A stretch of 18,695 nucleotides of DNA from a virus (lineage: Duplodnaviria; Heunggongvirae; Uroviricota; Caudoviricetes). The notes under the pieces are model-generated. The model was not told the origin of the DNA. It ran no database searches and saw nothing but the letters and a program-made list of their open reading frames with translations. Below are positions 16,420 to 16,709 of this stretch, in pieces (positions within the stretch are counted from its first letter, which is position 1; each line of letters opens with the position of its first letter). The stretch lies in the IMG/VR virus record IMGVR_UViG_2609459839_000004. One strand, written 5' to 3'. Both the position numbers and the translations under genes were made by a program.

Positions 16420-16439
16420 GGACGATATGGCAACACCAA

Positions 16440-16709
16440 ATCACCGGCTTTTACCGGGTGCCCCTGTCCTCTGCACAGCCGGGCGATATCCTGCTGTGCT
16501 GCTTCGGCGCATCGGTGGCTAATCATGCCGCCATTTACTGCGGCAACGGTGAACTGCTTCACCATATTCCTGAACAACTGAGTAAACGGGAGAGGTATTC
16601 CGAAAAATGGCAACGACGAACGCATTCAGTCTGGCGTCACCGCCACTGGCACACATCTGCCTTCACGGGGATTTACAACGATTTGGCCGCCGCCTCAGCC
16701 TGTATGTGA
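16440..16709 (+). pseudogene. K: C-terminal fragment of tail assembly protein K (NlpC/P60-like)
   Basis: Frame encodes AQPGDILLCCFGASVANHAAIYCGNGELLHHIPEQLSKRERYSEKWQRRTHSVWRHRHW... and overlaps the I start as K does in lambda; lies directly after U with V, G, T, H, M, L absent. 5' boundary approximate. Confidence 0.55.

What the first reader, a model, noticed from the sequence alone, without database searches (positions are those of the whole stretch)
16420..16460. Deletion junction 2: tail genes V through L missing, K remnant joined after U
U ends at 16419. The next ~30 nt begin with atggcaacaccaaat (MATPN, reminiscent of the lambda V start MPVPNPT) and then run straight into the C-terminal NlpC/P60-like part of K, which overlaps I as in lambda. 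The major tail, chaperone, tape-measure, M and L genes are gone.
Basis: partly seen in the sequence, partly recalled or inferred. Interest (0 to 1): 0.5.

Follow-up and report, generated by a model that had tools for sequence, protein, structure and literature searches.

The report
Tail-gene deletion scar in defective prophage
This is the scar of a 5.7-kb deletion that removed the tail-tube, chaperone, tape-measure and tip genes from a lambda-like prophage sitting in the E. coli ompW gene; this is ordinary prophage decay, though the breakpoint in gene K is reused by other, independent deletions.

Summary
Window 12807-16442 and 16441-18162 are each 100% identical to an intact lambda-like prophage at ompW in E. 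coli E275a. The two blocks lie 5,686 bp further apart there. The junction is at window 16441-16442, a 2-bp "TC" shared by both sides.

Lost are V from codon 6, G, T, H, M, L and the first 158 codons of K. Kept are U, the V ribosome-binding site with 5 V codons, K residues about 160-247, I, and a truncated J. The K remnant has no JAB domain and no catalytic Cys. The V start now reads out of frame into a 31-codon ORF.

No tail-tube, chaperone or tape-measure homolog exists elsewhere in the window. Two more deletions of the same style, at 12807/8 and 18161/2, removed terminase through portal and most of J through the tail fibre. None of the three junctions occurs in 5,426 complete E. coli genomes. 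They do occur in three public draft assemblies, inside a 312-kb contig.

The most likely mechanism is microhomology-mediated illegitimate joining, which I infer rather than show. This is routine decay of a known, usually defective prophage type.

One unexplained extra: the same K position (GGTCACC) is a breakpoint in at least four other independent deletions, and the V position in one more.

The parts
15452..16027 (+). Tail gene Z, intact
   Evidence: PF06763 E=4e-49. 100% identical to E275a Z and 59% to lambda Z.
16024..16419 (+). Tail terminator gene U, intact, the last complete gene before the scar
   Evidence: PF06141 E=1e-61 over the full profile. 100% identical to E275a U and 80% to lambda U.
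16418..16442 (+). Remnant of major tail gene V: Shine-Dalgarno GAGGA, ATG at 16427, then 5 codons (MATPN) plus 1 nt
   Evidence: Identical to E275a L002 25285-25309, where V is annotated at 25294-26040. Intact V matches PF16461.
16441..16442 (.). Deletion junction 2: the 2-bp microhomology TC present at both breakpoints in the intact relative (imperfect TCNCC, 4 of 5)
   Evidence: The BLAST blocks overlap by 2 nt. The offset jumps by 5,686 bp (L002 25309 to 30994).
16427..16522 (+). Chimeric 31-codon ORF: 5 V codons then K sequence read out of frame (MATPNHRLLPGAPVLCTAGRYPAVLLRRIGG*)
   Evidence: Translation. The deletion length 5,686 = 3 x 1895 + 1, so the frame shifts.
16443..16709 (+). K remnant: residues about 160-247 of the 247-aa JAB + NlpC/P60 tail-tip protein. 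It lacks the JAB domain and the catalytic Cys (C121) and keeps the His residues.
   Evidence: tblastn. Pfam on the remnant and on intact K. Intact K sequence.
16374..16709 (+). Mechanical ORF of 111 aa covering the K remnant. Its first 22 residues come from the 3' end of U and the V start read in another frame. It is annotated 'phage tail protein' (OKU09797.1).
16607..17287 (+). Tail assembly gene I, intact. This is the lambda-like long form. RefSeq annotates the E275a gene from the GTG that corresponds to window 16706.
   Evidence: PF06805. 67% identical to lambda I over residues 1-212 and 100% to E275a I.
17528..18162 (+). N-terminal 211 codons of tip attachment gene J, cut off by deletion junction 3 at 18161-18162
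   Evidence: PF24801. Block boundaries. Junction context.
12807..12808 (.). Deletion junction 1 (4,911 bp lost): small terminase subunit (Nu1-type) codon about 125 joined to the last 131 codons of the S49 protease/scaffold gene. Large terminase subunit, W and portal are lost.

Best explanation
The site is a deletion scar in a defective lambda-like prophage integrated in ompW (the 'PPompW' type). An ancestor essentially identical to the prophage of E. coli E275a lost 5,686 bp. The loss runs from the 6th codon of the major tail gene V to codon 159 of the tail-tip gene K, and the two ends were joined at a 2-bp shared TC. This removed V, the G/T chaperones, tape measure H, M, L and the JAB domain and catalytic Cys of K, so the element cannot build a tail. 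Two further deletions in the same element removed the large terminase subunit, portal, most of J and the tail fibre, so it cannot make heads or adsorb either. These facts are shown. The mechanism is inferred. I think it was illegitimate, RecA-independent joining of two broken or misaligned DNA ends at microhomology, either the RecBCD/LigA alternative end-joining described for E. coli or a related short-homology event. Homologous, site-specific (att) or IS-mediated recombination is unlikely. Downstream consequences are also inferred. If late transcription still occurs, V's strong ribosome-binding site would drive a 31-residue nonsense peptide. The K remnant is probably untranslated and in any case catalytically dead. 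I and the J stub remain as orphan ORFs.
For: Collinear 100%-identical blocks on both sides with a 5,686-bp jump in the intact relative. Base-level junction with TC on both parents and no other shared sequence. Annotation of the intact relative lists V, G, T, H, M, L and K in the missing interval. The lambda gene order and the 103-nt K/I overlap are the same. There are no V-L homologs in the window. The K remnant covers only Pfam NlpC/P60 positions 42-105, whereas intact K has JAB at residues 3-105 and NlpC/P60 at 111-224. The same sequence lies inside a 312-kb NCBI contig next to the ompW remnant, yciE, yciF and trpA-E, and the look-up reports 3 samples with this contig. It is also an IMG/VR contig. 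Fusion proteins of junctions 1 and 3 carry accessions with two different prefixes, EYE... (E. coli 1-110-08_S1_C3) and OKU..., which I take to be two submissions. All three junctions have a 2-bp overlap, and three of three with at least 2 bp has chance probability 0.004. Microhomology of 1-9 nt, and of 1-3 nt after Cas9 cuts, is the reported signature of E. coli end-joining (bioRxiv 10.1101/605246). PPompW prophages occur in 44% of E. coli strains and are described as generally defective through deletions (PMC8112680).
Against: Two base pairs is weak microhomology for any single junction. No intermediate carrying only one or two of the three deletions was found, so their order and timing are unknown. 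The junction is seen in only one lineage of draft assemblies, and no reads were inspected. The reuse of the same K and V positions by other deletions suggests the break sites are not random, and a plain end-joining model does not explain that.
Confidence: 0.9

Rival explanations
1. The breaks were not random. Gene K carries a fragile or preferentially cut and joined site (GGCGG|TCACCGG, containing GGTNACC), and the V start carries another. Candidate causes are a restriction-type nuclease, a topoisomerase/gyrase cleavage site, or GC-rich quasi-repeats (TCACCGG, GTACCGG, TCCCCTGG) that anneal with each other. Junction 2 would then be a direct site-to-site joining. This refines the best explanation rather than replacing it.
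For: Independent deletions in other prophage lineages break at the same K nucleotides. TOE17, DLI.5a, AST46 and a metagenome contig join U to K from position 30995. L175 has a 78-bp in-frame K deletion ending at 30988-30994. L460 keeps K up to 30994-30996 and joins it to a tail-fibre gene, so the opposite side is retained. SJ7 joins V to K at 31013. The V position 25308-25310 is the right breakpoint of a common capsid-to-V deletion, present in 10 of 88 IMG/VR contigs. A U position is shared by two events. Even under a generous null the K coincidence has p of about 7e-6.
Against: The local hairpin is unremarkable: -5.3 kcal/mol, z = -0.65. There is no Chi site nearby, and the partner breakpoints do not lie at GGTNACC sites. 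No CRISPR array with a matching spacer turned up, although that test was weak. The motif comparison was made post hoc, there are only nine events, and the surveys were anchored near K.
Confidence: 0.3
2. The junction is an assembly or scaffolding artefact of a draft genome with several similar prophages.
For: None of the three junctions occurs in 5,426 complete E. coli genomes. The sources are draft assemblies.
Against: The junction lies deep inside a 312-kb contig, and both flanks come from the same prophage in the correct order. A 2-bp overlap gives an assembler nothing on which to mis-join. The junction-specific proteins appear in assemblies that I infer, from their accession prefixes, come from two submitters. 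Comparable deletions exist in finished genomes.
Confidence: 0.03
3. The deletion arose by homologous recombination between repeats, by IS-mediated adjacent deletion or by a site-specific recombinase.
For: IS150 sits at the left end of the window and IS2 in the E275a relative, so IS elements are active in this element.
Against: There is no IS sequence, inverted repeat or repeat longer than 2 bp (4 of 5 imperfect) at either parental breakpoint. V and K are unrelated genes.
Confidence: 0.01
4. The tail-less arrangement is a selected, functional design, for example a satellite-like or domesticated element that keeps capsid and lysis genes, rather than decay.
For: The Q antiterminator, the lysis cassette, decoration and major capsid genes, FI, FII, Z, U and I all remain intact.
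Against: The flanks are 100% identical to an intact phage, so the event is recent. The large terminase subunit and portal are also deleted, so no capsid can be filled. The remnants (V stub, K stub, J stub) are out of frame or truncated. The arrangement is confined to one lineage.
Confidence: 0.03

Closest known systems
Bacteriophage lambda tail gene cluster Z-U-V-G-T-H-M-L-K-I-J (NC_001416, 7977-18903)
   Same: The gene order is the same. Z, U, I and the start of J are 59-80% identical in protein. U is followed after 7 nt by the V start. K and I overlap by 103 nt.
   Different: V after codon 5, G, T, H, M, L and the first 158 codons of K are absent, and J is cut after 211 codons.
Intact ompW prophage of E. 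coli E275a (NZ_CP035865.1, 2,468,712-2,503,331)
   Same: It is 99.6-100% identical to window 1397-18695 and integrated at the same locus next to yciE, yciF and trpA.
   Different: E275a retains the three segments of 4,911, 5,686 and 6,657 bp that are missing here. It carries an IS2 that the window lacks, and it lacks the IS150 at the window's left end.
PPompW prophages (Nakamura et al., PLoS Pathog 2021, PMC8112680)
   Same: They are lambda-like prophages in ompW, found in 44% of E. coli strains and described as generally defective through deletions, IS insertions and pseudogenes.
   Different: This particular set of three junctions is not described there. No type III effector locus was seen in the window.
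U-to-K deletion in E. coli TOE17, DLI.5a and AST46 prophages
   Same: A deletion of about 5.9 kb also removes V through L and the N-terminal part of K, and its K breakpoint lies within 1 nt of this one. That element also has a second deletion, from the large terminase subunit to the FII/Z region.
   Different: The left breakpoint is inside U (codon about 72) rather than in V. The sequences are about 5% diverged, so it is an independent event.
E. coli alternative end-joining (Chayot et al. 2010 model, as summarised in bioRxiv 10.1101/605246)
   Same: The deletion is kilobases long and the junction has 1-3 nt of microhomology, with no requirement for long homology.
   Different: No genetic test of RecBCD or LigA dependence is possible here, and the cause of the initiating break is unknown.

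Membership tests
Lambda-type siphovirus tail module | Tail completion and terminator genes Z and U | tested here: met
   PF06763 and PF06141 match over their full lengths. tblastn to lambda Z and U.
Lambda-type siphovirus tail module | Major tail tube protein V | tested here: not met
   Only 5 codons remain. Lambda and E275a V give no tblastn hit in the window.
Lambda-type siphovirus tail module | G/G-T chaperones and tape measure H | tested here: not met
   No tblastn hit for lambda or E275a G, T or H.
Lambda-type siphovirus tail module | Tip proteins M, L and K (JAB + NlpC/P60), I, J | tested here: not met
   M and L are absent. K is reduced to its last 88 residues. I is intact. J is reduced to its first 211 codons.
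Defective (cryptic) lambdoid prophage at ompW (PPompW) | Integration in ompW, leaving an ompW fragment at the right end | tested here: met
   In the source contig the window is followed by an OmpW fragment, yciE, yciF, yciG and trpA-E. E275a has the same context.
Defective (cryptic) lambdoid prophage at ompW (PPompW) | Lambda-like gene content with inactivating deletions | tested here: met
   Three internal deletions relative to an intact relative, plus lambda-like Nu1, D, E, FI, FII, Z, U and I genes.
Defective (cryptic) lambdoid prophage at ompW (PPompW) | Inability to produce infectious particles | not testable with these tools
   Inferred from the loss of the large terminase subunit, portal, V, H and J. 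It needs an induction experiment.
Microhomology-mediated illegitimate deletion (alternative end-joining type) | Parental sequences share only 1-9 nt at the junction, with no IS, att site or long repeat | tested here: met
   TC (2 nt) at junction 2, TT at junction 1 and TA at junction 3.
Microhomology-mediated illegitimate deletion (alternative end-joining type) | Dependence on RecBCD and LigA, independence of RecA | not testable with these tools
   This is a genetic requirement known from the literature. It cannot be read from the sequence.
NlpC/P60 (C40) peptidase | Catalytic Cys-His-His/polar triad within a complete domain | tested here: not met
   The remnant aligns only to profile positions 42-105. 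Cys121 of intact K (GVTDCYTLF) lies in the deleted part.

The most novel reading that the evidence does not exclude
Loss of the tail module in E. coli lambdoid prophages is not random decay. It is seeded by a few nucleotide-precise fragile or joining sites: K codon 159 at GGTCACC, V codon 6, and a GGTACCGG site in U. These sites are cut or paired repeatedly in independent lineages, perhaps by a host or mobile-element nuclease or by topoisomerase. The three same-style junctions in this element (a 2-nt T-N overlap, with each deleted segment starting CCC) may record one such episode.
Probability: 0.2. Interest if true: 0.45.

Novelty: already known. Interest (0 to 1): 0.13.

Why it matters
The scar itself matters little. 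It shows that this prophage is a dead remnant that cannot make tails, filled heads or adsorption apparatus. It corrects the public 'phage tail protein' label on a chimeric ORF. It also adds one more example to the well-documented decay of ompW prophages.

The side observation could matter more. If independent deletions really reuse the same few nucleotides in K, V and U, prophage inactivation in E. coli would have a sequence-specific component. That could be mapped and tested experimentally.

Tried and rejected
- **Hairpin at the K breakpoint.** The DNA fold gives -5.3 kcal/mol, and 43 of 200 shuffles fold as well, so the structure is not exceptional. A sliding-window energy scan timed out.
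- **Chi-directed RecBCD end protection.** There are no Chi octamers near any breakpoint in the required orientation.
- **Restriction at GGTNACC.** The site coincides with the K breakpoint, but none of the partner breakpoints lies at one of the 13 such sites.
- **Type I-E CRISPR self-targeting (ATG PAM at the K site).** A repeat-spacer-repeat query found no array carrying this spacer. The only full-length 'matches' were two repeats joined at 88% identity. This was a weak test.
- **Searching for an intermediate with only some of the deletions.** 300-bp queries across each junction found no complete genome spanning any of them.
- **Left-hand context of the element.** A look-up with the RusA protein returned only unrelated prophages. 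The identical IS150-hokD junction in strain 214-4 belongs to a different prophage at potC/potD. The element to the left of the window therefore remains unexamined.
- **Further V-site events.** The V-site surveys found no events beyond the window and the capsid-to-V lineage. A few AT-rich 18-mer matches in metagenome-derived viral contigs look like unrelated chance hits; I did not check them further.

Full report
**What is at 16420-16460**

ORF listing and translation show U (131 aa) ending with TGA at 16417-16419. A GAGGA ribosome-binding site follows, and ATG GCA ACA CCA AAT begins at 16427. From about 16441 the sequence, read in a different frame, encodes ...VTGFYRVPLSSAQPGDILLCCFGASVANHAAIYCGNGELLHHIPEQL..., which ends at 16709. 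Pfam matches U over its whole profile. For the 16374-16709 ORF, Pfam matches only positions 42-105 of the 105-position NlpC/P60 profile. Gene I (PF06805) starts at 16607, 103 nt before the K stop. Lambda has the same overlap, with K at 14276-14875 and I at 14773-15444.

**Finding the intact parent**

A megablast of the whole window against 5,426 complete E. coli genomes found one record covering 91% of it at 99.7% identity. In that record, E. coli E275a, the match is spread over 34.6 kb. The region is annotated as a complete lambda-like prophage next to an ompW fragment, yciE, yciF and trpA. Its late genes run terS, terL, W, portal, S49 protease, D, E, FI, FII, Z, U, V, G, T, H, M, L, K, I, J, lom, stf.

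BLAST of the window against this locus (L002) gives five collinear blocks:

| Window | L002 (E275a) | Identity |
|---|---|---|
| 1397-6022 | 4001-8626 | 99.6% |
| 6018-12808 | 9958-16764 | 99.7% |
| 12807-16442 | 21674-25309 | 100% |
| 16441-18162 | 30994-32715 | 100% |
| 18161-18695 | 39371-39905 | 100% |

The first gap is an IS2 in E275a with a 5-bp target duplication. The other three gaps are deletions in the window of 4,911, 5,686 and 6,657 bp.

**Junction 2 at base level**

The three sequences compare as follows:

- Intact V: ...GATATGGCAACACCAAATC|CCCTGGAGCC
- Intact K: ...CAATATGGCGGTC|ACCGGCTTTTACC
- Window: ...GATATGGCAACACCAAATCACCGGCTTTTACC

The only shared bases are TC, or TCNCC counting one mismatch. 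V keeps 16 nt, which is 5 codons plus 1 nt. K keeps codons about 160-247.

The deletion is 3n+1 nt long. The V start therefore reads K out of frame into a 31-codon ORF ending at 16522.

Intact K has a JAB domain at residues 3-105 and NlpC/P60 at residues 111-224, with the catalytic Cys at position 121. Both the JAB domain and that Cys are deleted.

tblastn with lambda and E275a proteins confirms Z, U, I and the first 211-217 residues of J. It finds only K residues 110-196 (lambda, short annotated form) or 159-247 (E275a). It gives no hit at all for V, G, T, H, M, L, terL, W, portal or lom.

**Is the junction real DNA?**

The junction 30-mer occurs once in IMG/VR, in a contig identical to window 9774-18695. 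The 111-aa ORF is encoded on NCBI contig LGMR01000013.1 (GCA_001912105.1, 311,851 bp). There the region is followed by an OmpW fragment, yciE/F/G and trpA-E, and the look-up reports three samples with this contig.

The fusion proteins created by junctions 1 and 3 carry accessions with two different prefixes: EYE25632, EYE37935, EYE25686 and EYE37945 (E. coli 1-110-08_S1_C3), and OKU09789. I take these to be two separate submissions.

None of the three junctions is spanned in any complete genome. The triple-deleted form is therefore private to one lineage. I rate an assembly artefact as very unlikely, because a 2-bp overlap inside a 312-kb contig offers nothing to mis-assemble.

**Mechanism**

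The junction has no IS end, att core or long repeat. It has only 2 bp of microhomology. The other two junctions also have exactly 2 bp (TT and TA). The chance that all three have at least 2 bp is 0.004.

This matches the reported signature of E. coli's RecBCD/LigA alternative end-joining. Replication-linked short-homology slippage over 5.7 kb is less likely but not excluded.

The mechanism is an inference. The deletion itself is shown.

**Context in what is known**

Prophages at ompW ('PPompW') were found in 44% of 767 complete E. coli genomes. They are described as generally defective through deletions, IS insertions and pseudogenes (PMC8112680). This window is one more example, so the finding is ordinary.

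**An unexpected side result**

Other prophages with deletions in the same region turned up in three places. These were the complete genomes (H1-H6), two anchor-based surveys of IMG/VR and one of metagenome contigs.

Nine independent events, A-I, were mapped onto E275a (L002) coordinates:

| Event | Source | Left breakpoint | Right breakpoint |
|---|---|---|---|
| A | this window | V 25309 | K 30994 |
| B | TOE17, DLI.5a, AST46, L173 | U 25104 | K 30995 |
| C | SJ7 | V 25687 | K 31013 |
| D | Z1323CEC0014 | V 25387 | L 29820 |
| E | L170 | U 25108-12 | K 30896 |
| F | L147 | capsid gene E 22697 | K 30656 |
| G | L070 type, 10 of 88 IMG/VR contigs | capsid gene E 22760 | V 25309 |
| H | L175 (78-bp in-frame deletion) | K 30915 | K 30988-94 |
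| I | L460 | K up to 30994-96 | tail-fibre gene |

- **K position.** GGCGG|TCACCGG is therefore hit by A, B, H and I within about 3 nt. Either side of the break is retained in different events, and event C lies 19 nt away.
- **V position.** It is hit by A and G, again with opposite sides retained.
- **U position.** One U position is hit by B and E.

Even a generous null gives p of about 7e-6 for the K coincidence.

I could not explain this. The local hairpin is ordinary. There is no Chi site, and the partner sites are not GGTNACC sites. No CRISPR spacer was found. The sites do resemble one another: TCACCGG, GTACCGG, TCCCCTGG and TTCCCGG. Mutual annealing of these GC-rich quasi-repeats, or a site-preferring nuclease or topoisomerase, remain possible.

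In this window all three deleted segments also begin with CCC. After allowing for the number of positions inspected, this has a post hoc probability of about 0.007.

**Verdict**

The feature is the scar of a microhomology-joined 5.7-kb deletion in a triply deleted, dead PPompW-type prophage. This is a known kind of event and of low interest. The recurrent use of the same K, V and U nucleotides by independent deletions is the only thing here that may deserve a dedicated large-scale survey.

Noticed in passing
window 12807-12808: Deletion junction 1: 4,911 bp missing relative to E275a. The small terminase subunit (Nu1-type) at codon about 125 is joined at a 2-bp TT to the last 131 codons of the S49 protease/scaffold gene. 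Large terminase subunit, W and portal are gone. The fusion ORF 12327-12875 is annotated 'terminase small subunit' in three assemblies.
   Followed up: partly
window 18161-18162: Deletion junction 3: 6,657 bp missing. J codon about 211 is joined at a 2-bp TA to a tail-fibre-assembly remnant near the ompW end. Most of J, lom and the tail fibre are gone.
   Followed up: partly
window 12807, 16441, 18161 (parental sequences in L002): All three junctions have exactly 2 nt of microhomology beginning with T (TT, TC, TA). In all three the deleted segment begins CCC (CCCGGA, CCCTGG, CCCGAA). This may reflect a shared mechanism or a single episode, or it may be a post hoc coincidence (p about 0.007).
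   Followed up: partly
window 16439-16445 (= L002 30992-30998, GGTCACC in K); loci L001, L019, L173, L175, L460: The K breakpoint is reused within about 3 nt by at least three other independent deletions, with either side retained, and by a fourth 19 nt away. Hairpin, Chi, restriction-partner and CRISPR explanations were not supported.
   Followed up: partly
window 16440-16443 (= L002 25308-25310 in V); loci L070, L112 and 8 more: The V breakpoint is also the right breakpoint of a major-capsid-to-V deletion, carried by 10 of 88 IMG/VR contigs with this V allele. That is a widespread defective lineage.
   Followed up: partly
L001 (E. coli TOE17) 5999-6004 and 6798-6803: Another ompW-type prophage remnant has two internal deletions, from the large terminase subunit to the FII/Z region and from U to K. 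This parallels the multi-deletion pattern seen in the window.
   Followed up: partly
window 1-1397: IS150 (173-aa orfA and 283-aa orfB) abuts the hokD region and replaces the early-region sequence present in E275a. The window starts exactly at the orfA ATG. An identical IS150-hokD junction exists in E. coli 214-4 in a different prophage at potC/potD.
   Followed up: partly
window 6018-6022: E275a carries an IS2 here with a 5-bp target duplication. The window has the empty site.
   Followed up: yes
window 7494-7743: Prophage tRNA cluster downstream of a DNA methyltransferase: CAT anticodon (called Met by ARAGORN, annotated tRNA-Ile in RefSeq for E275a), Arg-TCG and Arg-TCT.
   Followed up: no
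window about 4323-5827: A Ser/Thr protein kinase and a PP2C phosphatase gene pair lie directly downstream of antiterminator Q. They are retained intact in this dead prophage.
   Followed up: no
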